Assembly: GCF_000020225.1 (NCBI RefSeq)
Contig: NC_010655.1
Location: 1,380,001 to 1,412,000 of the forward strand
Direction: 5' to 3'
Source of the DNA: Akkermansia muciniphila ATCC BAA-835
GTDB taxonomy: Bacteria > Verrucomicrobiota > Verrucomicrobiia > Verrucomicrobiales > Akkermansiaceae
DNA: 32,000 bases
The position numbers and the translations under genes are program-made. The notes beneath the pieces were generated by a model, which had not been told where the DNA came from, did not search any database, and saw only the letters and a list, made by a program, of their open reading frames with translations. Positions 1-11,317 of this stretch are shown piece by piece (the stretch's first letter is position 1; each line of letters starts with the position of its first letter).

Positions 1-1649
1 ATCCTCTGGGGAAATATATTGCCAAGGTTTACAAGAAGGAGAAAACATGGCTTGATTTCATGAAGCCTGTTGAAAGGCTGATGTTCCGCCTGTCCGGGAT
101 TAATCCGGAGGAAGAAATGAACTGGAAGCAGTTCCTGCGGGCTTTATTGACCGTAAATCTGTTCTGGTTCGTATGGGGGATGGTTCTTCTGGTCAGCCAG
201 GGGTACCTGCCCCTCAATCCGGACGGCAACGTCGGACAGACGTGCCACCAGGCGTTCAATACATGCATTTCATTCATGGTGAATTGCAACCTCCAGCATT
301 ACAGCGGAGAGAGCGGTTTGACCTATTTTACGCAGTTGTTCGTGATTATGCTGTTCCAATTTATTACGGCAGCTACCGGCATGGCCGCAATGGCAGGGAT
401 CATGAACGCTCTCAGTAAGAAGACAACTAAAACGATTGGAAACTTCTGGGATTACCTCGTGTTGAGTTCTACCCGCATTTTGCTGCCTCTTTCTCTGGTG
501 GTCGGATTCATCCTGATTACTCAGGGTACGCCGATGGGGTTTGACGGTAAGATGGAAGTGACAACCCTTGAGGGAGTGGAACAAACCATTTCCCAAGGGC
601 CTGCCGCGGCTGTTGTGCCCATTAAACAGCTGGGAACGAATGGCGGCGGTTATTTCGGCGTTAATTCATCCCATCCGCTGGAAAATCCGACTTACCTTTC
701 CAACATGGTCGAATGCTGGTCCATCCTGATTATTCCGATGGCGATGGTTTTGGCCTTTGGTTTTTATCTCAAGCGCAAGAAACTGGGATACAGTATTTAC
801 GGCGTGATGTTGCTTGCCTTTTTAATTGGCGTTTGCATTAACGTGTATCAGGAGATGAACGGCAATCCCCGCATAGAAGAGATGGGCATCGTCCAGGAAA
901 GCGGGGCTATGGAAGGTAAGGAAATCCGGCTCGGATCCGCGGCTACAGCTTTGTGGAGCGTCGTTACGACAGTTACGTCAAATGGGTCCGTCAACGGGAT
1001 GCATGATTCCACCATGCCTCTTTCAGGCATGATTCAGATGTTGAACATGCAGATTAATACGTGGTTTGGCGGCGTCGGGGTAGGGTGGATGAATTATTTC
1101 GCCTTCATGATTATAGCCGTGTTCATCAGCGGTCTGATGGTGGGAAGAACCCCCGAATTCCTGTGCAAGAAAGTAGAAGCCCGTGAAATGAAAATCGCTT
1201 CCATTGTGGCGTTGCTCCACCCGTTTGTGATTCTCGTCGGAACGGCTCTGGCTTGTTATCTGTTTGTTTACGCGCCGTCGTTTGTGGAAGGCGAAGGAGG
1301 GTGGGTCAATAATCCCGGCTTTCATGGATTGAGTGAATTCCTTTACGAGTATACTTCAAGCGCTGCCAATAACGGTTCCGGGTTTGAAGGGCTGGCCGAT
1401 AATACCTGGTTCTGGAATTACTCATGCGGCATTGTCCTCATTCTGAGCCGTTTCATCCCGATCATCGGCCAGGTTGCCATCGCCGGGCTTCTGGCGGGCA
1501 AGAAGTATATTCCCGAGACGTCCGGAACGTTGAAGACGGATTCCGTAACGTTCAGCGCCATGACTTTTGCCGTGATTTTCATTGTTGCGGCTTTGTCCTT
1601 CTTCCCTGTCCATGCCTTAAGCACCATTGCCGAACATCTGAGTTTGTAA
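1..1649 (+). CDS. kdpA: Potassium-transporting ATPase subunit A (KdpA), 5' end outside the window
   Basis: The reading frame is open from nt 3. Residues PLGKYIAKVYKKEKTWLDF precede the track's Met at 60, so the true start lies upstream of the window. The protein is polytopic and hydrophobic, with KdpA-type pore-loop motifs (NLQHYSGESGLTYFTQ, GTNGGGYFGVNSSHPLENP, ANNGSGFEGL). kdpB and kdpC follow directly. Confidence 0.95.
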   Translation, partial: PLGKYIAKVYKKEKTWLDFMKPVERLMFRLSGINPEEEMNWKQFLRALLTVNLFWFVWGMVLLVSQGYLPLNPDGNVGQTCHQAFNTCISFMVNCNLQHYSGESGLTYFTQLFVIMLFQFITAATGMAAMAGIMNALSKKTTKTIGNFWDYLVLSSTRILLPLSLVVGFILITQGTPMGFDGKMEVTTLEGVEQTISQGPAAAVVPIKQLGTNGGGYFGVNSSHPLENPTYLSNMVECWSILIIPMAMVLAFGFYLKRKKLGYSIYGVMLLAFLIGVCINVYQEMNGNPRIEEMGIVQESGAMEGKEIRLGSAATALWSVVTTVTSNGSVNGMHDSTMPLSGMIQMLNMQINTWFGGVGVGWMNYFAFMIIAVFISGLMVGRTPEFLCKKVEAREMKIASIVALLHPFVILVGTALACYLFVYAPSFVEGEGGWVNNPGFHGLSEFLYEYTSSAANNGSGFEGLADNTWFWNYSCGIVLILSRFIPIIGQVAIAGLLAGKKYIPETSGTLKTDSVTFSAMTFAVIFIVAALSFFPVHALSTIAEHLSL

Positions 1650-1733
1650 ATTTAGGGTAGAATACGTTTACCACCAATAACATATTTACATATTTCCGTT
1701 CCAGTTTCTGGAATTGAAAAAGAAATCTACGAT

Positions 1734-3767
<2,034 letters not shown>

Positions 3768-4387: not shown

Positions 4388-4492
4388 GGCGGCAATGGCG
4401 ATTCCGGATTTGGTGATAAATTGCCGCCTTGAAAAAATGAAATCAATTGCGGGCTTCATGTCATGGTAACGCCCGCAATTGATTTTCATTTT
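4388..4492 (+). terminator. Two tandem stem-loops between kdpC and kdpD-N (probable intrinsic terminator/attenuator)
   Basis: Hand-paired. Hairpin 1: 4388-4396 GGCGGCAAT pairs with 4420-4428 ATTGCCGCC (9 bp, 23-nt loop). Hairpin 2: 4434-4454 pairs with 4471-4492 (about 21 bp with one bulged T at 4486, 16-nt loop). Hairpin 2 has a GC core GCGGGC/GCCCGC flanked by an A-rich 5' arm and a T-rich 3' arm. Confidence 0.45.
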
Positions 4493-4551: not shown

Positions 4552-5679
4552 ATGATTGACGGAAGTAACGGAGCAGAGCACTTTCTTGACCTGATACGGC
4601 GTTCTCGAAGGGGAAAGTTCAAGATTTACATTGGTATGATGGCCGGAGTAGGCAAGACGTACCGCATGCTGCAGGAAGCCCATGAATTGCTGAATAACGG
4701 CATTGATGTCAGAATCGGTTACGTTGAAACCCACGGGCGGCCCGGGACTGAAGCCATGCTCCGGGGGGTGCCCGTCATCCCGCGTAAAGTGGTTTTTTAC
4801 AAAGGCAGGGAGATTGAAGAAATGGACCTGGACGCGATTCTTCAAGCCCGGCCCGAGTTGGTTATTGTTGACGAACTGGCTCATACCAATGTGGAAGGGA
4901 GCCGCCATCGCAAGAGATGGGAAGACGTGATGGAGCTGCTTGACGCCAATATTAATGTGATTTCCGCGATTAATATCCAGCATATCGAAAGCCTGAGCGG
5001 CGAAGTGAAGGAGATTACGGGGATTGAGATGAAGGAACGGGTTCCCGACAGGATTTTGCAGGAGGCGGACGAAGTGGTGAATATCGACCTGACGTCCGAG
5101 GAATTGATCGGCCGCCTCAAGGCCGGCAAGATTTACCGGCCTGAAAAAATCCAGATTGCCCTGGATAATTTTTTCAGAACGGAAAATATTCTTCAGCTGC
5201 GTGAACTGGCATTGAAGGAAGTTGCTTTCCGAGTGGAGAAAAAAGTGGAAACGGAAGTATTCCCGGCAGTTTCTTCCGCCAGAAGGGAAAAGATTCTGGC
5301 CTGCATCAGCAGCAATGAACAGACGCCCCGGCACATCATCCGAAAAGCATACCGGATTTCCTCGCGTTACAGTACGTCGTTTATCGCCCTTTACGTCCAG
5401 ACGCCAAGGGAGTCCCCCGACCGCATCAATCTGGCGTCCCAGCGCCATTTGCTTAATCATTTCAAGCTGGTGGCCGAACTGGGAGGGACGGTGAAGCAGG
5501 TGAGTGCGGAAGACATACCCCAGGCGATCATCGCAACGTGCAGGGAATATCATATTACGGCTATTTGCATGGGGCATCCCGCATTCAAAATGCCCGGAGC
5601 CATGTTCAAGATACTGGGATATAAACAATTTCTGCGTGTCTTGTCGGAGATGAAGATAGATTTAATCATCATTGCATAA
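4552..5679 (+). CDS. kdpD: Truncated KdpD: KdpD N-terminal (P-loop) domain + Usp-like domain only, with no membrane or histidine-kinase part
   Basis: 375 aa. It carries the KdpD_N hallmarks GMMAGVGKTYRML (P-loop), VDELAHTN and INVISAINIQHIES, followed by a Usp-like C-terminal half. The ORF stops without TM helices or HisKA/HATPase motifs. Confidence 0.85.
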   Translation: MIDGSNGAEHFLDLIRRSRRGKFKIYIGMMAGVGKTYRMLQEAHELLNNGIDVRIGYVETHGRPGTEAMLRGVPVIPRKVVFYKGREIEEMDLDAILQARPELVIVDELAHTNVEGSRHRKRWEDVMELLDANINVISAINIQHIESLSGEVKEITGIEMKERVPDRILQEADEVVNIDLTSEELIGRLKAGKIYRPEKIQIALDNFFRTENILQLRELALKEVAFRVEKKVETEVFPAVSSARREKILACISSNEQTPRHIIRKAYRISSRYSTSFIALYVQTPRESPDRINLASQRHLLNHFKLVAELGGTVKQVSAEDIPQAIIATCREYHITAICMGHPAFKMPGAMFKILGYKQFLRVLSEMKIDLIIIA

Positions 5680-5936
5680 AAAACAGAGGTAAATTTGAAA
5701 ATAAGGCCGGAGCCGGTTCTTTTCACAGGAAGCAGGCGATGAGATTATCATGCTTGTCTTCCCTGAGCGGAACGGATTGTTGCCGGCAGTTTCCATTATA
5801 GCCTCCCCGGGGGCGTTTTCCGTTACCATTCCCGGGCGGGGCGGCCCCTTTTATTTTTTTCCGTCTGGTTGTCTGAAAAACAGTCCAATGTTCCGGTCCG
5901 CCGCATCTCCGGCAGCACCTTTGTTGAAAAAGAATG

Positions 5937-5983
5937 TAGAATTCCCGGAGGAGCAGCATTCTTAAAAGTGAAACGATAACGTT
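5937..5983 (+). promoter_or_regulatory. Conserved upstream element, copy 1 (upstream of the SUMF1-like gene)
   Basis: TAGAATTCCCGGAGGAGCAGCATTCTTAAAAGTGAAACGATAACGTT. It aligns by hand to 7099-7146 with 41 identical positions in 48 columns and one 1-nt gap. A second short shared block, TTATCAT(A/G)AACA, follows 24 nt later (6008-6019) versus 26 nt later in copy 2 (7173-7184). Confidence 0.5.
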
Positions 5984-6031
5984 CCGTCTTCCATAGAGGA
6001 GCGGCGGTTATCATAAACAGAAGGAACAGTT

Positions 6032-7018
6032 ATGAGCATCAATTTGCAAAAAGTCATTATAGCCGTATGTGCGGCCGCAACGGTCAGTGCGGGATTCGCA
6101 GCCCGCACCGAGGGGGCCAAACTGCACCGATTCAGCACTACTATCGAAAAAGAGAGGCCGCAGTTGAATGAAGAAACGAAACGGTTGATTGCTTCCTATC
6201 GCCGGGACCCGTCCGAGGCTAATCGGTCGGCTTTGAGGAAACAGGTCGGGATTAATTACGACAAGGTCCTTGACCGAAAAAAGGCGAAGCTTGAAGAATT
6301 GAAACGAACGGCCCGGCATGCGTCCAAGATACAGGAAATGCAGGAGATCGTGGATGAAATGGTTCAAAACAGGGAAGCGCGCATCGACCAAAGCATGCGG
6401 CGTTTCAGTGATCCGCGATTCAGACCAGGTGCCCGCTATGCAGATGGCGGGTATTTGCCGGTGCTCGGAGCTTCCTGGAATGTATCAATTGCATATACTC
6501 CGGTTACCAATGAGGATTATGCCCAATTCCTGAAGGCAACGGGAAGGAAGGCTCCTAAGGATTGGGATAATGGCGCCATGCCTGCCGGCAAAGGGAGGCA
6601 TCCCGTGGTGAATGTTTCCTATGACGACGCTTCTGCCTATTGCCAATGGTTGTCGCTCCAGGATAGGAAAGCCGTTTATCGCCTGCCGACTGAAGAGGAG
6701 TGGGAGTTTGCCGCCGGGCATATGCCCAAGGATGCGGATTTTAATTGCGGCGAGAGAAACGGGACATCTCCCGTGGACGCCCATGCCGCGACATCCGGCG
6801 CCTGCGGAGCGATTGATATGTGGGGCAATTGCTGGGAATGGACTTCTTCTTCAGTTGAAGTTTCCAAGGCCGTGGCACACGGTAAAACGGTCATGGCGGT
6901 GAAGGGAGGTTCCTGGCGTTCGCCGCGGACGAGCTGCCGAACTGAGCGGAAAGGAGAAGGAAGGGAATCTTCTTTCGCTTTCAGTGATGTCGGTTTCCGG
7001 GTCGTCCGCGAAGGTTGA
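6032..7018 (+). CDS. Secreted SUMF1/FGE-sulfatase-fold domain protein with an N-terminal coiled-coil region (probably not a true formylglycine-generating enzyme)
   Basis: 328 aa. An N-terminal signal-like segment (VIIAVCAAATVSAGFAA) is followed by a charged helical region. The C-terminal part is FGE-sulfatase-like (HPVVNVSYDDASAYCQWLS, YRLPTEEEWEFAA, GNCWEWTSS, KGGSWRS, GFRVV). Confidence 0.85.
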   Translation: MSINLQKVIIAVCAAATVSAGFAARTEGAKLHRFSTTIEKERPQLNEETKRLIASYRRDPSEANRSALRKQVGINYDKVLDRKKAKLEELKRTARHASKIQEMQEIVDEMVQNREARIDQSMRRFSDPRFRPGARYADGGYLPVLGASWNVSIAYTPVTNEDYAQFLKATGRKAPKDWDNGAMPAGKGRHPVVNVSYDDASAYCQWLSLQDRKAVYRLPTEEEWEFAAGHMPKDADFNCGERNGTSPVDAHAATSGACGAIDMWGNCWEWTSSSVEVSKAVAHGKTVMAVKGGSWRSPRTSCRTERKGEGRESSFAFSDVGFRVVREG

Positions 7019-7098
7019 GGGGGGATTCCATGCGTTTCAGTTTCTTACAGGCAATAGAATCTGGCTGGCAGACCTGATGGAAATTCCGGCCGAATTGG

Positions 7099-7146
7099 TA
7101 GATTTCCCTAAGGAACTGCATTCTTGAAAAGTGAAACGATACCGTT
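7099..7146 (+). promoter_or_regulatory. Conserved upstream element, copy 2 (upstream of the small cationic peptide gene)
   Basis: TAGATTTCCCTAAGGAACTGCATTCTTGAAAAGTGAAACGATACCGTT. See copy 1 for the alignment. It ends 31 nt before the ATG at 7178. Confidence 0.5.
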
Positions 7147-7177
7147 TCAGAAAAAATATCAACCCTCATTGATTATC

Positions 7178-7390
7178 ATGAACAAGCTCATTATTCCTGC
7201 AATTATTGGAATATTCGGTCTGGCTCCCGGTACGGTTACTGCCAACGCGGCGGAATCAACAACAGCCTCCTTTTCTGTTCAAATACTGAAAAAGAAACCG
7301 GAGGCGTTGAAGTACGGCCTGAAACACGGCCTCAAGAAAGGTTTGAAACACGGTCTGAAAAAAGGCAGGATAAACGGCGGTAAAAAATAG
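7178..7390 (+). CDS. Small secreted polycationic repeat peptide (70 aa precursor)
   Basis: The ATG at 7178 is preferred over the track's TTG at 7124, which lies inside the conserved upstream element. The product begins with a signal peptide, MNKLIIPAIIGIFGLAPGTVTANA, with an A-x-A type site. The mature part is AESTTASFSVQILKKKPEALKYGLKHGLKKGLKHGLKKGRINGGKK. A strong terminator hairpin lies 17 nt after the stop. Confidence 0.6.
   Translation: MNKLIIPAIIGIFGLAPGTVTANAAESTTASFSVQILKKKPEALKYGLKHGLKKGLKHGLKKGRINGGKK
7316..7363 (+). repeat. In-frame tandem 12-nt repeat x4 encoding (GLK[HK])4 inside the small peptide gene
   Basis: ggcctgaaacac / ggcctcaagaaa / ggtttgaaacac / ggtctgaaaaaa, read directly from the sequence. 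It encodes GLKH-GLKK-GLKH-GLKK. Confidence 0.8.
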
Positions 7391-7407
7391 TCGCCGTCAT
7401 CTTATCT

Positions 7408-7437
7408 GCTGCCGGGCCTGCAGCCCGGCAGCGTTTT
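7408..7437 (+). terminator. Rho-independent terminator of the small peptide gene
   Basis: A perfect 10-bp GC-rich stem (GCTGCCGGGC / GCCCGGCAGC) with the 5-nt loop CTGCA, followed by GTTTT. Confidence 0.7.
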
Positions 7438-7514
7438 CCCATCAATAAGGACGTTTTATCACCTGTAGTGCGGAAACATATCTGACTTCCGTACAGCTTT
7501 GATACATTGCCCAT

Positions 7515-7539
7515 CATGTCTTAAAAAGTCAACATATTG
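7515..7539 (+). promoter_or_regulatory. Possible degenerate third copy of the core upstream element, in front of the MBL-sigma-kinase operon
   Basis: CATGTCTTAAAAAGTCAACATATTG versus the core CATTCTT(G)AAAAGTGAAACGATA(A/C)CG. About 20 matches in about 27 columns, but 4 gaps are needed. The match is weak and could be chance. Confidence 0.25.
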
Positions 7540-7555
7540 AGAAGAAAGGCGTTTT

Positions 7556-8395
7556 ATGGTAAAATGGTTGTTGTGCGGAGCCGCCATGATTTCCGGCATC
7601 GTGATCGCGGCTGAGTCGGAAAATCGTTCATTCCAATTTGGAAATTTTGAGGTGATTGCTGTTCAGGATGCTCTTTCAGCGATGTGGGTCGAATTATTCC
7701 CGGGTATGTCGGAAGAGGAGTTCCTCCGCTTAACCGGAGGCGGGAGGGTTCCTTCTTCCGTGAATGTTTTCCTGTTGAAACGCGGCGACGGAAAAATCAT
7801 TCTGGTGGACGCAGGGAACGGAGGAAAACGGGGCGGGATGCTTCGTAAACTTGAACAGAGCGGCGTTTTTCCGGAGAGCGTCGATTTCATTTTACTCACC
7901 CATATGCACGGCGACCACATCGGAGGATTGCTTGGGAAACATGGCGAAGCCGTTTTTTCCAGAGCCCTCGTCTATGTTTCCATGCCGGAATGGGAATTTT
8001 GGCAAAATGGTACGGTCGGACTACAGGGAAAACAGGTTCGGAAGGTGTTGCATGCTTACGGCAGCCGGGTGAGAACATTCCGGTTTGGAGAAGAAGTTCT
8101 GCCCGGCATCAAGGCTCTTGACGCTTCCGGGCATACACCCGGGCATACCGTTTTTGAGACTGATTCCCTGCTGATTGTCGGAGATTTGCTTCATGCTGCC
8201 GCGCTCCAGATTCCGCGTCCGGAGGTTTGCACGATTTACGATATGAATCCGTTCGGAGCGGTTCAGGCCCGGCGGCGCTTTTATGAGTTTGCGGCTTCTT
8301 CCTCGAAGCCGGTCGCCGGAATGCACCTGCCGTATCCCGGAATCGGCCGGATAGGAAGGAGTGCGGCGGGATATGTCTATCTGCCCGGAAAATGA
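7556..8395 (+). CDS. Secreted MBL-fold metallo-hydrolase
   Basis: 279 aa with an N-terminal signal-like segment (WLLCGAAMISGIVIAAES). It has the metallo-beta-lactamase motifs LLTHMHGDHIGG (HxHxDH) and DASGHTPGH. The stop is only 25 nt before the sigma factor start. Confidence 0.85.
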   Translation: MVKWLLCGAAMISGIVIAAESENRSFQFGNFEVIAVQDALSAMWVELFPGMSEEEFLRLTGGGRVPSSVNVFLLKRGDGKIILVDAGNGGKRGGMLRKLEQSGVFPESVDFILLTHMHGDHIGGLLGKHGEAVFSRALVYVSMPEWEFWQNGTVGLQGKQVRKVLHAYGSRVRTFRFGEEVLPGIKALDASGHTPGHTVFETDSLLIVGDLLHAAALQIPRPEVCTIYDMNPFGAVQARRRFYEFAASSSKPVAGMHLPYPGIGRIGRSAAGYVYLPGK

Positions 8396-8420
8396 GAAAG
8401 GATAAAAAAGACACGGTACA

Positions 8421-9017
8421 ATGACGCAAGCAGAAACAGCATGCCCGGATGCCTGGGGAAGCCATTTCCTTGAATACCGGGGAAGGCTTCTTGCCCTGGC
8501 CCGGAGGAATTTGAATCCGGTTCTTGCCCGGCGCGTTTCGGCGGAAGATGTGGTTCAGGAGGCTCTGCTGGCAGCCTGCGGGAAAATGGCTTTTTTTGAA
8601 AACAATCCGGAGATTCCTGTCTATTTCAAACTGCGGACGATTCTGTTCCAGACCCTTACGGCTATGGAAAGGAAGCATCTGCAATGCCTCAAGAGAGACG
8701 CCTGCAGGGAAGTGAATGTGACGGATGACGGCGTGGGGCCCGCTGCCCGGTTGGATTGGAACCGGTTTGCAGATACCGTGACCGGGCCTCTTACCCGTGC
8801 CGTCAGGGCGGATCGTTATACATTGCTCCGGAAAGCGGTCGAGGCGCTGCCCGAAAACGATCGGCAGATTCTTGAACTCCGCCATTTTGACGACATGTCC
8901 AATGCGGATTGTGCCGAAGTCCTGCATATTGGGCCGAAAGCCGCAAGCATCCGCTATGTGCGGGCGCTGCAGCGGCTTCGGAAGCAGCTGATGGAGTTAA
9001 CCGAGTTTCAGCCATGA
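8421..9017 (+). CDS. ECF-type sigma-70 family sigma factor (planctomycete/verrucomicrobial type, kinase-associated)
   Basis: 198 aa. Sigma region 2 (SAEDVVQEALLAA) and region 4 HTH (LPENDRQILELRHFDDMSNADCAEVLHIGPKAASIRYVRALQRLRKQL) are present, with no regions 1 or 3. Its stop overlaps the kinase start (ATGA at 9014-9017). Confidence 0.9.
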   Translation: MTQAETACPDAWGSHFLEYRGRLLALARRNLNPVLARRVSAEDVVQEALLAACGKMAFFENNPEIPVYFKLRTILFQTLTAMERKHLQCLKRDACREVNVTDDGVGPAARLDWNRFADTVTGPLTRAVRADRYTLLRKAVEALPENDRQILELRHFDDMSNADCAEVLHIGPKAASIRYVRALQRLRKQLMELTEFQP

Positions 9018-11317
9018 AGGGGAAGATTTCTCTGGAAGATCTGGTTGAACAATTCCTGGATCAGTGCCGTTCCGGCAATGTTCCCGATATTCAGGATTTT
9101 GCCGGGGCGCATCCGGAGTTTGCTGCCGAGTTGCTGGCTCTTCTTCCGCTTGTGATGGAGATGGAAGATTGGAGCGTTGAAAAAAAACAGGGAATTATGC
9201 CTCCGGTTCACGATTTTCCCGATTTGGAGGGGGACGATTACCGGCTGATTCGGAGACTAGGCAGCGGCGGTATGGGGGTGGTATTTGAAGCGCTGCAATT
9301 GTCCCTCAACCGGAAAGTGGCCCTCAAGCTGTTGTCTCCGTTGCTGCTGCAGGATGCCGCCCAACGCAGCCTGTTTGAGCATGAGGCGCATGTGATTGCC
9401 AGGCTTCATCATCCCAATATTGTCAGAATTTTCAGTGCCGCGTGCCGTCCGGGATGTTGTTATTATGCGATGGAGTTGATAGAAGGCAAGAGTCTGGACG
9501 GATGTGAATTCAGTAATCCGTATGAGATAGCCCGCATTGGCCTCCAGGCCGCCAGGGCGATTGCGTACGCCCACCGCTGCGGCATTCTGCACCGCGATAT
9601 CAAACCGGCGAACCTGTTGCTGGATGAAGCGGGGGAAGTACACGTCAGCGATTTTGGACTTGCTTTTCTGCTTCAGGGGAGAAATGAAGTTATTGAGAAG
9701 GAAGGAGCTCAGAGCGGAACACTGCGGTATATGTCCCCGGAGCGGCTGGTGCATGGAGTCAATACCTTTTCCAGCGATCAGTATGCGTTTGGGGTGACGC
9801 TTTATGAGCTTGTTGCAAAATCCCCGCCGTTTCCGGGGCTAGCTCCTGAAGAATTGATGGAACGGATTTGCAGGGAACCGGTTCCGCCGTTGAAGTGCAG
9901 CGAACCCGACTTGGCCGCGATTATTAACAAGTGCGTCAGTTTCCGTCCGGAGTCGCGCTATCGAAGCATGGACGAACTTTCTGAAGATTTGCTGCATTTT
10001 TTGAATCATGAACCGGTCGGGGCCTCCTCCCCGTCTCCGGCCAGGCGGTTGCAGCTGTGGATGAAACGTAAACCGGCTGTTGCCGTATTGTCTTTGGCTG
10101 CGGCCCTGTGTGCGGCCGCTTTCGTTGTCGCGTTGGGCGCCGGTTATCTGCAGACGGCGTCTGCGCTGAAACTGGCGGAAAACAATGCCGCAGTTGCCGA
10201 TGCGGCTTTGTCACAAGTGTTCACCCGTATTGCGGAGCAGCCCCCTTCACAGAAAAATACGCAGCTGCTTTCAGCTTTGCTGCCCTATTACAGGATGATC
10301 GCCAGAGGAAAAAATCTGCCGGAGTCAAAGGTTTGCGAGGCCAATGCCGTCATCGGGGAATGCGCACTGCGCACCGGGAGTTATGCTCTTGCGGAAGAAG
10401 CGTTCCGCAACATGATGAAATTCAGGAAAGACGCTTTTCCCGTCAACCAGTTGGCGACGGCTTTGAAAAAACAGGGTAAAGATAAAGAGGCAACGGAACT
10501 TTTCCGGCAGGTGGCCGACCGCTTTGCGATGTCGGAGCGGGCGGAGGATCGGTTTGAAACGGTCCGCGCGTTGCTGGCTTTGTCCGGTTCTCCGGAGAGT
10601 GTTGAGCGTTCCCGGGCGTTCGGAATGTTGGAAACATTGTTGGAGGATGATCCTGACCATCCTGAATACCGTTTTCAATACGCACAGCTTTTGGCCGGAA
10701 ATCCCCGCCTTTTCCGGGAGAGGCGCATTCCCGGCATTGAACCGAATGCAGCCGTGCTGCTCCTCCAGCTTGCCGGCGCCTATCCGGAACGGCCGGAATA
10801 CGGCCTGGCGCTGGTAGAGCTGATGCTGAAGAAACTCCGGTATGCCAGGAATTTCCGGGAACATAACCAGAGGGAACTTGCCGATACGGTGAATCTTTCC
10901 GAAAGGCTTCTCGGGCGTTGGCCGAATGATCCGCAGATTATTTCCGGCATGGTCCGGCTGCATGCACGGTATATTGGGGCCCTGCGACGCGAAGGAAAAG
11001 ATGCCTGGGCCCGAAGGGAAAGCGACCGCCTGCAGGGCATCCTGGAAGTTCTTTTTTACAATCCCGAGATTTCCGATGCCGTGAAAGAAAGCCTGATCCG
11101 CCTCCAGCTTCAACGTTTGAAACTGTTACGGCATGACGGCCGGAGTTATGAAGGAGAGGATCTGCGGAAAAAAATCAGCCGGGAGCTGGGCTTTTACCAC
11201 GGACCGATGCTCCGGGTGTTCCGGGAGGAGTTGGATAAAGCCGGGCCGGATGATGAATCCTCCGTCGGGAAGAGTGAAGATTCCATTATTTTTGAACGCA
11301 CCAAGCAAGGTTTGTAA
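9014..11317 (+). CDS. Membrane Ser/Thr protein kinase with a C-terminal extracytoplasmic helical-repeat (TPR-like) domain
   Basis: The ATG at 9014 is preferred because of the ATGA overlap with the sigma stop; the track's start at 8909 lies inside the sigma gene. Hanks kinase motifs are all present: GSGGMG, VALK, HRDIKPANLLL, SDFGLA, GTLRYMSPE. One TM helix follows (AVAVLSLAAALCAAAFVVALGAGYL), then about 380 aa of helical repeats. Confidence 0.9.
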   Translation: MKGKISLEDLVEQFLDQCRSGNVPDIQDFAGAHPEFAAELLALLPLVMEMEDWSVEKKQGIMPPVHDFPDLEGDDYRLIRRLGSGGMGVVFEALQLSLNRKVALKLLSPLLLQDAAQRSLFEHEAHVIARLHHPNIVRIFSAACRPGCCYYAMELIEGKSLDGCEFSNPYEIARIGLQAARAIAYAHRCGILHRDIKPANLLLDEAGEVHVSDFGLAFLLQGRNEVIEKEGAQSGTLRYMSPERLVHGVNTFSSDQYAFGVTLYELVAKSPPFPGLAPEELMERICREPVPPLKCSEPDLAAIINKCVSFRPESRYRSMDELSEDLLHFLNHEPVGASSPSPARRLQLWMKRKPAVAVLSLAAALCAAAFVVALGAGYLQTASALKLAENNAAVADAALSQVFTRIAEQPPSQKNTQLLSALLPYYRMIARGKNLPESKVCEANAVIGECALRTGSYALAEEAFRNMMKFRKDAFPVNQLATALKKQGKDKEATELFRQVADRFAMSERAEDRFETVRALLALSGSPESVERSRAFGMLETLLEDDPDHPEYRFQYAQLLAGNPRLFRERRIPGIEPNAAVLLLQLAGAYPERPEYGLALVELMLKKLRYARNFREHNQRELADTVNLSERLLGRWPNDPQIISGMVRLHARYIGALRREGKDAWARRESDRLQGILEVLFYNPEISDAVKESLIRLQLQRLKLLRHDGRSYEGEDLRKKISRELGFYHGPMLRVFREELDKAGPDDESSVGKSEDSIIFERTKQGL

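What the first reader, a model, noticed from the sequence alone, without database searches (positions are those of the whole stretch)
5937..7184. ~48-nt upstream element shared by two neighbouring secreted-protein genes, with a possible third copy at the sigma operon: candidate ECF regulon signature
**Seen in the sequence**
- 5937-5983 and 7099-7146 align with 41 of 48 identical columns. The perfect core is AAAAGTGAAACGATA, preceded by GCATTCTT.
- Both copies are followed at nearly the same distance (24 and 26 nt) by a second shared block, TTATCAT(A/G)AACA. In copy 2 this block contains the ATG start; in copy 1 the equivalent triplet is ATA.
- I found no other copy in the remaining intergenic regions of the window.
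- A weaker match (7515-7539) precedes the MBL-sigma-kinase operon.

**Inference**
- Copies in front of two target genes plus the sigma's own operon are what an autoregulated ECF regulon looks like.
- I could not fit a canonical GGAAC-N16/17-CGT ECF promoter to the element.
- A repressor operator, a conserved 5'UTR or small RNA, or a duplicated leader are equally possible.
Basis: partly seen in the sequence, partly recalled or inferred. Interest (0 to 1): 0.7.

Follow-up and report, generated by a model that had tools for sequence, protein, structure and literature searches.

The report
Alternative-sigma promoter pair with leader hairpin
The two repeated stretches are most likely twin promoters read by the neighbouring kinase-controlled alternative sigma factor of Akkermansia muciniphila, each followed by a small hairpin at the predicted start of the transcript. 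The same arrangement recurs next to the same sigma/kinase pair in gut and environmental relatives.

Summary
5937-5983 and 7099-7146 share 41 of 48 columns, far beyond chance. The claimed third copy (7515-7539) is not a copy.

The window is Akkermansia muciniphila. The module of FGE-like secreted protein, small Lys/Gly-rich secreted protein, optional MBL hydrolase, ECF-type sigma and TPR Ser/Thr kinase recurs in Lentisphaeria, Victivallis, Planctomycetia and Kiritimatiellae.

What is conserved across these lineages is TGTAGAWTTTTC-N9-GCATTCTTAA, with an invariant 15-nt gap between TGTAGA and GCATTC. The motif sits upstream of the FGE-like gene and the small gene, and sometimes other neighbours. 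It occurs only where the sigma/kinase pair is adjacent.

That repeat begins at the predicted +1 (G5970, G7133).

The sigma operon has its own sigma-70-like promoter (TTGATA-N17-TAAAAA, 7499-7527), so autoregulation is not supported here.

Best reading: two promoters dependent on the adjacent sigma, which is probably activated by phosphorylation, plus a 5'-terminal leader hairpin. No transcription start or sigma dependence has been measured. The genome-wide distribution in Akkermansia could not be tested.

The parts
5935..5940 (+). Predicted -35 box TGTAGA of the promoter of the FGE-like gene
   Evidence: Invariant hexamer in 29-30 of 30 unique sites from other organisms, always 15 nt before GCATTC. 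The weight-matrix score of the whole site is 31.8 bits.
5956..5965 (+). Predicted -10 box GCATTCTTAA of the promoter of the FGE-like gene
   Evidence: GCATTCTT was fixed by the search pattern. The flanking C21, A30 and A31 were not, and are conserved. The box is not TATAAT-like (read from the sequence).
5970..5985 (+). Inverted repeat GAAACG-ATAA-CGTTCC starting at the predicted +1 (G5970).
   Evidence: The Y35/R36 rule places +1 at position 36 of the motif. The fold is weak on the + strand (-1.3 kcal/mol, one A.C mismatch) and better on the - strand (-5.8). Homologous hairpins sit at the same place in about 20 of 29 sites.
6032..7018 (+). Target gene 1: secreted protein with an FGE-sulfatase domain, 328 aa
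   Evidence: Pfam PF03781, E = 2.6e-33. Full-length homologs are 61-79% identical in relatives. The same protein is in A. muciniphila genomes as ACD04980.1.
7097..7102 (+). Predicted -35 box GGTAGA of the promoter of the small gene
   Evidence: The weight-matrix score of the whole site is 27.6 bits. The spacing is the same 15 nt.
7118..7127 (+). Predicted -10 box GCATTCTTGA of the promoter of the small gene
7133..7148 (+). Hairpin GAAACG-ATAC-CGTTTC at the predicted 5' end of the small-gene transcript (+1 about G7133)
   Evidence: -7.1 kcal/mol, z = -4.1, 0 of 200 shuffles fold as well.
7178..7390 (+). Target gene 2: small secreted protein, 70 aa, a signal peptide followed by GLKxGLK repeats
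   Evidence: Homologs start MNKL or MKKL and carry (K/M)NGLK repeats. The 88-aa (TTG 7124) and 73-aa (TTG 7169) public annotations start inside or just after the promoter.
7408..7438 (+). Terminator-like G+C-rich hairpin (GCTGCCGGGC / GCCCGGCAGC, then GTTTT) after the small gene
   Evidence: Read from the sequence. Equivalent hairpins follow the small gene in L007, L009, L011 and L147. The consensus scan did not call it because the T run has only 4 T.
7499..7527 (+). Sigma-70-like promoter TTGATA-N17-TAAAAA of the MBL-sigma-kinase operon.
   Evidence: Relatives have TTGAYW-N17-19-(TG)nTATATT at the same place (L007, L011, L028, L041, L045, L147).
7556..8395 (+). MBL-fold hydrolase, an optional member of the module
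   Evidence: Pfam PF00753. Closest NCBIfam model is the AidB-type lactonase, below cut-off. Present in L009, L147 and L061, and downstream of the kinase in L013 and L149. Absent in L007 and L011.
8421..9017 (+). ECF-type sigma factor, 198 aa; presumed reader of the two promoters
   Evidence: Sigma70_r2 and r4 only. Best NCBIfam match is TIGR02984, 131 bits, below cut-off. Region 2.2 reads (S/T)(A/P)ED in all 12 orthologs.
9014..11317 (+). Hanks-type Ser/Thr kinase with a hydrophobic stretch that looks like a membrane-spanning segment and a C-terminal TPR domain. Its start overlaps the sigma stop (ATGA).
   Evidence: Pfam Pkinase, E = 1.4e-43, plus TPR. Adjacent to the sigma in every related locus with enough flank.

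Best explanation
The element has two parts.

**Its 5' two-thirds is a promoter.** It has a -35-like box TGTAGA(W)TTTTC and a -10-like box (C)GCATTCTTAA, 15 nt apart. I infer it is read by the ECF-type sigma factor encoded 1.3-2.5 kb downstream (8421-9017). That sigma is probably switched on when the co-translated membrane TPR Ser/Thr kinase (9014-11317) phosphorylates the conserved Ser/Thr. This residue replaces the first Asp of the DAED core-binding motif.

One copy drives the secreted FGE-like protein. The other drives the small secreted Lys/Gly-repeat protein.

It is the first arm and loop of a repeat that begins at the predicted transcription start. It most likely forms a 5'-terminal stem-loop on the mRNA that protects it from 5'-end-dependent decay.

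The sigma/kinase operon is transcribed from its own housekeeping-type promoter. The system is therefore wired as constitutive sensor, then post-translational activation, then two (locally clustered) output genes.

**Shown:** the motif, its fixed geometry, its orientation and position before genes, its strict co-occurrence with the sigma/kinase pair across four PVC lineages, and the hairpin propensity.

**Inferred:** which sigma reads it, the +1 position, the phosphorylation switch, and the hairpin's function.
For: 1. Loci ascertained by protein only:
- Six related loci were fetched through the FGE-like protein (L007, L009, L011, L013, L147) or through the sigma alone (L149-L151 add three more).
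- All carry the motif upstream of both the FGE-like or FGE-domain gene and the small gene, on the coding strand, about 80-100 nt before the start codon.
- In the sigma-anchored loci the 2-3 sites score 20-45 bits against 6 bits or less elsewhere in 16.6 kb.

2. Public genome scan:
- A strict pattern scan of 596 Gb of genomes gave 52 loci, against roughly 70 expected by chance.
- 19 of these are PVC bacteria. There the site precedes FGE-like orthologs, small K/N/G-repeat proteins or other neighbours.
- tblastn finds sigma and kinase orthologs next to the site in every PVC locus with enough flank, and in none of the 33 non-PVC hits.

3. Motif geometry:
- The spacer is invariant.
- Conservation at unconstrained positions (7-12 TTTTTC, 21 C, 30-31 AA) has the shape of a promoter.
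- Y35/R36 fits the -1/+1 rule, and G37 lies at +2.

4. Negative controls:
- Orphan FGE homologs without the sigma/kinase pair (L014, L148) lack the motif.
- In the complete 5.1-Mb Lentisphaeria chromosome (L022) all strict matches lie in the one sigma/kinase locus.

5. The sigma:
- It has (S/T)(A/P)ED where canonical sigmas have DAED, in 12 of 12 orthologs.
- No anti-sigma is evident next to it, and the kinase gene overlaps its stop codon.
- This fits published kinase-activated ECF groups (PMC7826278, PMC8103513, PMC8999054).

6. The hairpin:
- Mean fold energy is -7.0 kcal/mol, against -3.2 and -2.5 in flanking control windows (Wilcoxon p = 3e-4 and 5e-4).
- About 20 of 29 sites start a stem at motif positions 33-38.
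- 82% of cells are paired, against 21-48% when the 3' arm is slid.
- Unrelated stem sequences occupy the same place in L009, L036, L055, L061 and L147.
Against: - No transcription start, no expression data and no sigma dependence are available for any of these sites.
- The boxes do not contain the AAC (-35) and CGT (-10) signatures typical of most ECF promoters.
- I could not compare them with the promoter predictions of the ECF classification, because its supplement is not held.
- The sigma gene is not preceded by the motif in the window, which is unlike most ECFs.
- Formal covariation in the hairpin is thin: 3 double-change cells, with shuffle controls 19-179 of 500.
- Copy 1 folds poorly on the sense strand (-1.3 kcal/mol) and better on the antisense strand (-5.8).
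- Over 32 sites the sense strand is only marginally better than the antisense strand (p = 0.096). A DNA palindrome is therefore not excluded.
- The strict-pattern scan returned no Akkermansia hit even though copy 1 fits the pattern. The source region seems masked, so the genome-wide distribution in Akkermansia is untested.
Confidence: 0.72

Rival explanations
1. The conserved 50 nt is an operator. A DNA-binding regulator (repressor or activator) binds it, in particular the inverted repeat GGAGC-N6-GCTCC / GAAACG-N4-CGTTYC at +1 to +16. Transcription comes from some other promoter.
For: - The inverted repeat is palindromic in DNA.
- Copy 1 pairs better on the minus strand.
- The sense-versus-antisense preference is not significant.
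- Loop and stem sequences are fairly conserved, with A45 in 27 of 30 sites.
- Both Akkermansia copies share the same derived stem.
Against: - No transcription-factor gene is conserved in the module. Only the sigma and the kinase are.
- The two most conserved boxes, TGTAGA and GCATTCTTAA, are not symmetric. They sit at promoter spacing.
- No alternative promoter-like site is conserved upstream of these genes (one search finds none near either copy).
- Stems with unrelated sequence occupy the same position in several lineages.
- The divergent-operon sites lack the repeat altogether but keep the two boxes.
Confidence: 0.12
2. The similarity is only a recent local duplication or gene conversion of a leader in A. 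muciniphila, with no regulatory meaning (a 'duplicated leader').
For: - The two Akkermansia copies are more alike over -14 to +12 than the two copies within the closest relatives L147 and L009. They share 15 of 15 in the core.
- A second 11-of-12 block follows at a similar distance.
Against: - The two-copy arrangement with the same boxes occurs in more than 15 other species from four lineages, at orthologous positions.
- The similarity is therefore ancient and constrained.
- Gene conversion may explain the extra identity in Akkermansia, but not the element itself.
Confidence: 0.04
3. The element encodes or belongs to a structured regulatory RNA (a riboswitch or a small RNA) rather than a promoter.
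For: A conserved hairpin lies in the leader, and the loop A residues are conserved.
Against: - No Rfam family reaches threshold anywhere in the window.
- The structured part is a single stem of 5-7 bp in a 45-62-nt leader.
- The most conserved bases lie upstream of any plausible transcript start and show no pairing.
- No terminator or Shine-Dalgarno-sequestering alternative fold is evident.
Confidence: 0.05
4. The motif is a promoter, but it is read by another alternative sigma factor encoded elsewhere in the genome, not by the adjacent one.
For: - The sigma's own operon lacks the motif in the window.
- No direct sigma-promoter link has been measured.
Against: - The motif is physically linked to this sigma/kinase pair in every lineage, despite different flanking genes.
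- It is absent from orphan homologs of the target gene.
- In L056 a variant of the motif precedes the sigma gene itself.
Confidence: 0.07

Closest known systems
Target promoters of extracytoplasmic-function (group 4) sigma factors, e.g. E. coli sigma-E or B. subtilis SigW
   Same: - Bipartite -35/-10 boxes with a rigid spacer.
- A T-rich tract after the -35 box.
- A small, locally clustered regulon of secreted or envelope proteins next to the sigma gene.
   Different: - The boxes read TGTAGA and GCATTCTTAA instead of GGAAC/GAAAC and CGTC/CGTA (my own knowledge of those consensus sequences).
- The sigma operon is not preceded by the motif in Akkermansia or in most relatives.
Ser/Thr-kinase-activated ECF sigma factors (EcfP/PknT of Vibrio parahaemolyticus and EcfK/PknS of Xanthomonas citri, group ECF43; planctomycetal groups ECF59, 61, 62, 217)
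   Same: - The sigma gene is immediately followed by a transmembrane Hanks-type kinase.
- No anti-sigma factor is evident.
- A hydroxyl residue sits in the DAED motif of region 2.2 (PMC8999054, PMC8103513, PMC13147305).
   Different: - Here only the first Asp is replaced (S/T-A/P-E-D), so two acidic residues remain. ECF43 has QTTA or STTA.
- Group membership could not be assigned.
- The outputs here are an FGE-fold protein and a repeat peptide, not polymyxin resistance or a type VI secretion system.
5'-terminal stabilising stem-loops of bacterial mRNAs (e.g. the ompA leader)
   Same: A short stable hairpin begins within 0-3 nt of the predicted 5' end of the transcript.
   Different: - The 5' end is only predicted.
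- No half-life data exist.
- The loop sequence (GNNAAA) is more conserved than a pure stabiliser needs.
- Copy 1 in Akkermansia is weak.

Membership tests
ECF sigma-dependent promoter | Two conserved boxes at about -35 and -10 with a fixed spacer | tested here: met
   TGTAGA and GCATTC are separated by exactly 15 nt in all 30 unique sites. The flanking unconstrained positions are conserved.
ECF sigma-dependent promoter | Located upstream of, and co-oriented with, genes. Co-occurs with the cognate sigma gene. | tested here: met
   The motif is absent from orphan target homologs L014 and L148.
ECF sigma-dependent promoter | Canonical AAC in the -35 box and CGT in the -10 box | tested here: not met
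   The consensus is TGTAGA / GCATTC. A GCGTTC variant occurs only in L056 and L148.
ECF sigma-dependent promoter | Positive autoregulation: the same motif precedes the sigma operon | tested here: not met
   The best window score upstream of MBL or sigma is -18.7 / -27.6 bits. A sigma-70-like promoter is there instead. Only L056 has a variant upstream of its sigma.
ECF sigma-dependent promoter | Transcription start 6-8 nt after the -10 box, and dependence on the sigma | not testable with these tools
   No 5'-end or expression data for this locus were found. The Cappable-seq paper PMC4782308 covers A. muciniphila, but its held supplements did not appear to contain a per-site table for that species, and I did not open them.
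Kinase-activated ECF sigma factor (ECF43, 59-62, 217 type) | [quoted passage not shown] | tested here: met
   Pfam. The sigma stop and kinase start overlap at 9014-9017. Synteny holds in all relatives.
Kinase-activated ECF sigma factor (ECF43, 59-62, 217 type) | Ser/Thr replacing acidic residues of the DAED motif in region 2.2 | tested here: met
   (S/T)(A/P)ED in 12 of 12 orthologs, S40 in the window protein. Only one of the acidic positions is replaced.
Kinase-activated ECF sigma factor (ECF43, 59-62, 217 type) | Assignment to a named ECF group by the classification's profiles | not testable with these tools
   The ECF group models and supplement are not held. Best NCBIfam match is TIGR02984 (planctomycete subfamily 1), 131 bits against a cut-off of 184.
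5'-terminal stabilising mRNA stem-loop | A stable hairpin at the extreme 5' end of the transcript | tested here: inconclusive
   Hairpins are enriched at predicted +1 to +3. However, +1 is only predicted, copy 1 is weak, and the strand preference is not significant.
Known cis-regulatory RNA family (Rfam) | Match to a curated covariance model | tested here: not met
   No match at gathering thresholds in the whole window.
Dispersed intergenic repeat or miniature mobile element | Many copies irrespective of gene context | tested here: not met
   There are two copies in 32 kb and none elsewhere. In a complete Lentisphaeria chromosome all strict matches lie in one locus. The whole A. muciniphila genome could not be scanned.

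The most novel reading that the evidence does not exclude
The inverted repeat at +1 to +16 has a nearly invariant loop adenine, and in Akkermansia the same derived stem appears in both copies. On this reading it is not just a stabiliser. It would be a specific second control point. One possibility is a binding site for a post-transcriptional regulator. Another is that the holoenzyme itself senses it during promoter escape.

The two outputs would then be gated twice. The secreted FGE-fold protein and the Lys/Gly-repeat peptide might in turn feed back on the periplasmic TPR domain of the kinase. That would make a self-contained, horizontally mobile sensing module shared by gut PVC bacteria.
Probability: 0.15. 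Interest if true: 0.65.

Novelty: new member of a known kind. Interest (0 to 1): 0.45.

Why it matters
Akkermansia muciniphila is a widely studied gut commensal, yet almost nothing is known about how it senses its surroundings. This analysis turns an anonymous repeat into a concrete, testable circuit. A membrane TPR Ser/Thr kinase leads to a phosphorylatable ECF-type sigma factor. That sigma reads two defined promoters driving two secreted proteins.

The promoters could serve directly as reporters to find the signal the kinase senses. The motif TGTAGA-N15-GCATTCTTAA allows the regulon to be predicted in Lentisphaeria, Victivallis, Planctomycetia and Kiritimatiellae.

It also adds a promoter consensus for a kinase-linked ECF lineage. 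For that class, only ECF43 members have been studied experimentally in the papers I could read.

Tried and rejected
- **Rfam scan of the whole window:** nothing.
- **Sigma-70 and terminator consensus scan:** no promoter call at either copy. It does not find the real terminator-like hairpin after the small gene.
- **Sigma-54 reading:** GG-N10-GC does not fit (by eye).
GGAAC in copy 2 (7113-7117) is 20 nt from CGATA and is not conserved in relatives.
- **Metagenome scan with the FGE-like alignment:** the tool picked generic FGE peptides and returned distant FGE-domain genes.
- **Genome scan:** it returned no Akkermansia locus although copy 1 fits the pattern. The genome-wide question for Akkermansia stays open.
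- **Literature:**
  - No paper mentions the guessed locus tags Amuc_1154-1159.
  - The supplement of the ECF classification is not held.
  - Jogler et al. 2012 is not held.
  - The supplements held for the Cappable-seq paper did not appear to hold an Akkermansia table; I did not open them.
- **Covariation test on the GGAGC-type hairpins:** only weakly positive.
- **Sense-versus-antisense folding:** not decisive.
- **Second shared block TTATCATRAACA:**
  - In the FGE-like leader it is the conserved stretch before the Shine-Dalgarno sequence (CATAAACAGAAGG, also in L039 and L147).
  - It is not conserved before the small gene in relatives.
  - I treat the copy-2 match as conversion or coincidence.
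- **PDB sequence search of the FGE-like protein:** only generic FGE-fold hits, the best being the FGE-like domain of kinase ToxD.
Full report
**1. Where we are**

The FGE-like protein of the window is found, residue for residue, in complete 2.66-Mb genomes of Akkermansia muciniphila. Its accession there is ACD04980.1. The sigma is ACD04983.1 and the kinase is ACD04984.1.

The gene order, is:
- kdpFABC
- a KdpD sensor-domain gene (4552-5679)
- copy 1 of the element
- a secreted protein with an FGE-sulfatase domain (6032-7018)
- copy 2 of the element
- a small secreted protein (7178-7390)
- a terminator-like hairpin
- an MBL-fold hydrolase (7556-8395)
- an ECF-type sigma factor (8421-9017)
- a Hanks-type Ser/Thr kinase with a hydrophobic stretch that looks like a membrane-spanning segment and a TPR domain (9014-11317, its start overlapping the sigma stop)
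- an aldo-keto reductase

**2. The observation**

The two stretches align with 41 of 48 identical columns and one gap.
- The local alignment score of the two intergenic regions is 62, against 16.6 +/- 2.2 for shuffles.
- The 15-mer core is exact only at 5964 and 7127.
- The second block, TTATCAT(A/G)AACA, is at 6008-6019 and 7173-7184. It matches 11 of 12, and 4 of 1000 shuffles do as well.

The proposed third copy fails. A weight matrix built only from sites in other organisms gives 31.8 and 27.6 bits for copies 1 and 2. The next best site in the window scores 5.0, and shuffled sequence reaches at most 12.9. The best score in 7440-7560 is -18.7.

**3. What is conserved elsewhere**

Full-length homologs of the FGE-like protein are 61-79% identical. 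Those with a taxonomic label are MAGs assigned to Lentisphaeria, Planctomycetia and Limisphaerales.

I fetched the loci of five of them, and a module recurs in different flanking contexts. The module is the FGE-like gene, a small gene of 71-95 codons, an optional hydrolase, a sigma of 198 aa and a TPR kinase of about 750 aa.

Upstream of both the FGE-like gene and the small gene, every one of these loci has TGTAGA followed by 15 nt and then GCATTCTTAA. It lies just downstream of these boxes.

**4. Public genome scan**

I scanned 596 Gb of species-representative genomes for TGTAGAWWYY-N11-GCATTCTTA. This found 52 loci, about the number expected by chance. However, 19 are from Lentisphaeria, Victivallales (including Victivallis vadensis DSM 14823), Planctomycetia and Kiritimatiellae.

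In those 19 loci the site lies about 35-270 nt before one of the following:
- an FGE-like ortholog
- a small secreted (K/M)NGLK-repeat protein
- a divergent operon starting with a tiny membrane peptide plus a methyltransferase-like protein
- a PSCyt2/PSD1 plus DUF1501 pair
- another FGE-domain protein

tblastn finds sigma and kinase orthologs (60-76% and 50-72% identity) beside the site in every such locus with enough flank. It finds none in the 33 non-PVC loci, which look like chance matches inside genes.

No Akkermansia locus was returned, although copy 1 fits the pattern. The source region appears to be masked in that collection, so the genome-wide count in Akkermansia is unknown.

**5. An unbiased test**

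Three further loci were fetched through sigma homologs alone, at 63-65% identity. Each has two or three sites scoring 20-45 bits. All lie upstream of the small gene, an FGE-domain gene or a divergent neighbour. Nothing else in 16.6 kb scores above 6 bits.

Conversely, two FGE-like homologs that are not next to a sigma/kinase pair (L014, L148) have no such site. L148 keeps only a GCGTTCTTAA box and a hairpin.

In a complete 5.1-Mb Lentisphaeria chromosome, all three strict matches are in the one sigma/kinase locus.

**6. Anatomy**

I number the T of TGTAGA as position 1.
- Positions 1-6 and 22-29 were fixed by how the sites were collected, so their conservation is circular.
- Positions 7-12 (TTTTTC), 21 (C) and 30-31 (AA) were not fixed, and they are conserved.
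- Position 35 is a pyrimidine in 25 of 30 sites and position 36 a purine in 26 of 30. This is the usual -1/+1 pair.
- Position 37 is G in 27 of 30 sites.

This places TGTAGA at -35 to -30 and CATTCT at -13 to -8. The predicted starts are G5970 and about G7133. This step is inference.

The boxes are not TATAAT-like. The Cappable-seq study reports a -35 element and a TATAAT box for A. muciniphila promoters in general (PMC4782308).

**7. The 3' part of the element**

Starting at the predicted +1, most sites carry an inverted repeat. The commonest form is GGAGC-GNNAAA-GCTCC. In Akkermansia it is GAAACG-ATAA-CGTTCC (copy 1) and GAAACG-ATAC-CGTTTC (copy 2).

Evidence for a hairpin:
- Over 29 unique sites the mean fold energy of positions 33-64 is -7.0 kcal/mol. 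Flanking control windows give -3.2 and -2.5 (p = 3e-4 and 5e-4). About 20 sites start a stem at positions 33-38.
- On an alignment of 17 homologous leaders, 82% of cells pair, against 21-48% when the 3' arm is slid. Only three cells show double changes, so covariation is weak.
- Stems of unrelated sequence occupy the same place in L009, L036, L055, L061 and L147. This favours structure over a fixed protein-binding sequence.

Evidence that limits the claim:
- Copy 2 folds well (-7.1 kcal/mol, z = -4.1). Copy 1 folds poorly on the sense strand (-1.3) and better on the antisense strand (-5.8).
- Over 32 sites the sense strand is only marginally favoured (p = 0.096). RNA hairpin versus DNA palindrome is not settled.
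- The divergent-operon sites lack the repeat. It is therefore an accessory to the promoter, not part of it.

**8. The sigma operon**

After the small gene comes a G+C-rich hairpin (7408-7438). Then comes TTGATA-N17-TAAAAA (7499-7527). Six relatives have TTGAYW-N17-19-(TG)nTATATT at the same place.

The operon therefore looks constitutively transcribed. Only L056 has a motif variant (TGTAGA-N15-GCGTTCTTA) upstream of its sigma.

**9. The sigma**

It has only regions 2 and 4. Its best NCBIfam match is the planctomycete subfamily TIGR02984, below cut-off.

In 12 of 12 orthologs, region 2.2 reads (S/T)(A/P)ED where sigma factors usually have DAED. Published work shows that kinase-linked ECF sigmas are activated when a Thr (ECF43) or Ser (ECF59/60) in this motif is phosphorylated. 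The phosphate restores the negative charge needed to bind core polymerase (PMC8103513, PMC8999054, PMC13147305, PMC7826278).

Here two acidic residues remain, so the switch may be partial. This step is inference, and I could not assign the ECF group.

**10. Verdict**

The element is best read as a pair of promoters for the adjacent kinase-linked ECF-type sigma, each followed by a leader hairpin.

It is wrong for the third copy and for autoregulation. The emphasis on the 15-nt core is misplaced.

The extra identity of the two Akkermansia copies over -14 to +12 is not seen in the closest relatives (L147, L009). It suggests a short gene-conversion tract or a shared sequence-specific constraint.

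This is a new, well-delimited example of a known kind of element, in an organism where it is directly testable.

Noticed in passing
window 7124-7390: Public annotations give the small ORF as 88 aa (TTG 7124, inside the predicted -10 box) or 73 aa (TTG 7169). Homologs begin MNKL or MKKL, which points to ATG 7178 and 70 aa. The family is a signal peptide followed by (K/M)xGLK / KNGLK repeats ending in NG(D/G)KK.
   Followed up: partly
L031 about 1567-1740 (+ strand): In a Planctomycetaceae MAG a motif copy is fused directly to the last 51 codons of the sigma gene. The junction is ATTCTTGA, shared by the -10 box and the sigma codons for Ile-Leu-Glu. This looks like a microhomology deletion that removed the small gene and most of the sigma.
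   Followed up: partly
L056 about 1825-1855: Upstream of the sigma gene of a rumen Lentisphaeria MAG there is TGTAGA-N15-GCGTTCTTA. This is a variant of the motif with a more ECF-typical CGT in the -10 box, so autoregulation may exist in that lineage. The same GCGTTCTTAA box, without TGTAGA, precedes the orphan FGE homolog in L148.
   Followed up: partly
window 6032-11317 compared with L007-L064: The module proteins are 57-79% identical between Akkermansia (Verrucomicrobiota) and Lentisphaeria, Victivallis and other PVC relatives, which is high for different phyla. The flanking genes differ in every lineage. This suggests horizontal spread of the whole module among PVC bacteria. The G+C content of the module is not anomalous in the window.
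   Followed up: partly
L063 (- strand, site at 5674), L022 (- strand, 7342), L015, L149 (- strand, 6399): A third promoter copy points away from the FGE-like gene. It drives a tiny membrane peptide (MYIDAGTGSMLLQA...) followed by a 450-490-aa protein with a weak methyltransferase signature. These sites lack the +1 hairpin. Akkermansia has no equivalent in the window.
   Followed up: partly
window 4433-4492: A 22-nt inverted repeat (86% complementary, 16-nt loop) lies between kdpC and the KdpD sensor-domain gene. The latter is only 375 aa and shows no histidine-kinase domain in Pfam.
   Followed up: no
window 7556-8395: The MBL-fold hydrolase, first gene of the sigma operon, is closest to AidB-type N-acyl-homoserine-lactone lactonases (147 bits, cut-off 360). 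In relatives it is present, absent or moved downstream of the kinase.
   Followed up: no
Genome-contig collection: Copy 1 matches the scanned pattern exactly, yet no Akkermansia locus was returned. The source region or genome seems to be masked in that collection. Absence of Akkermansia hits there is therefore not evidence about regulon size.
   Followed up: no
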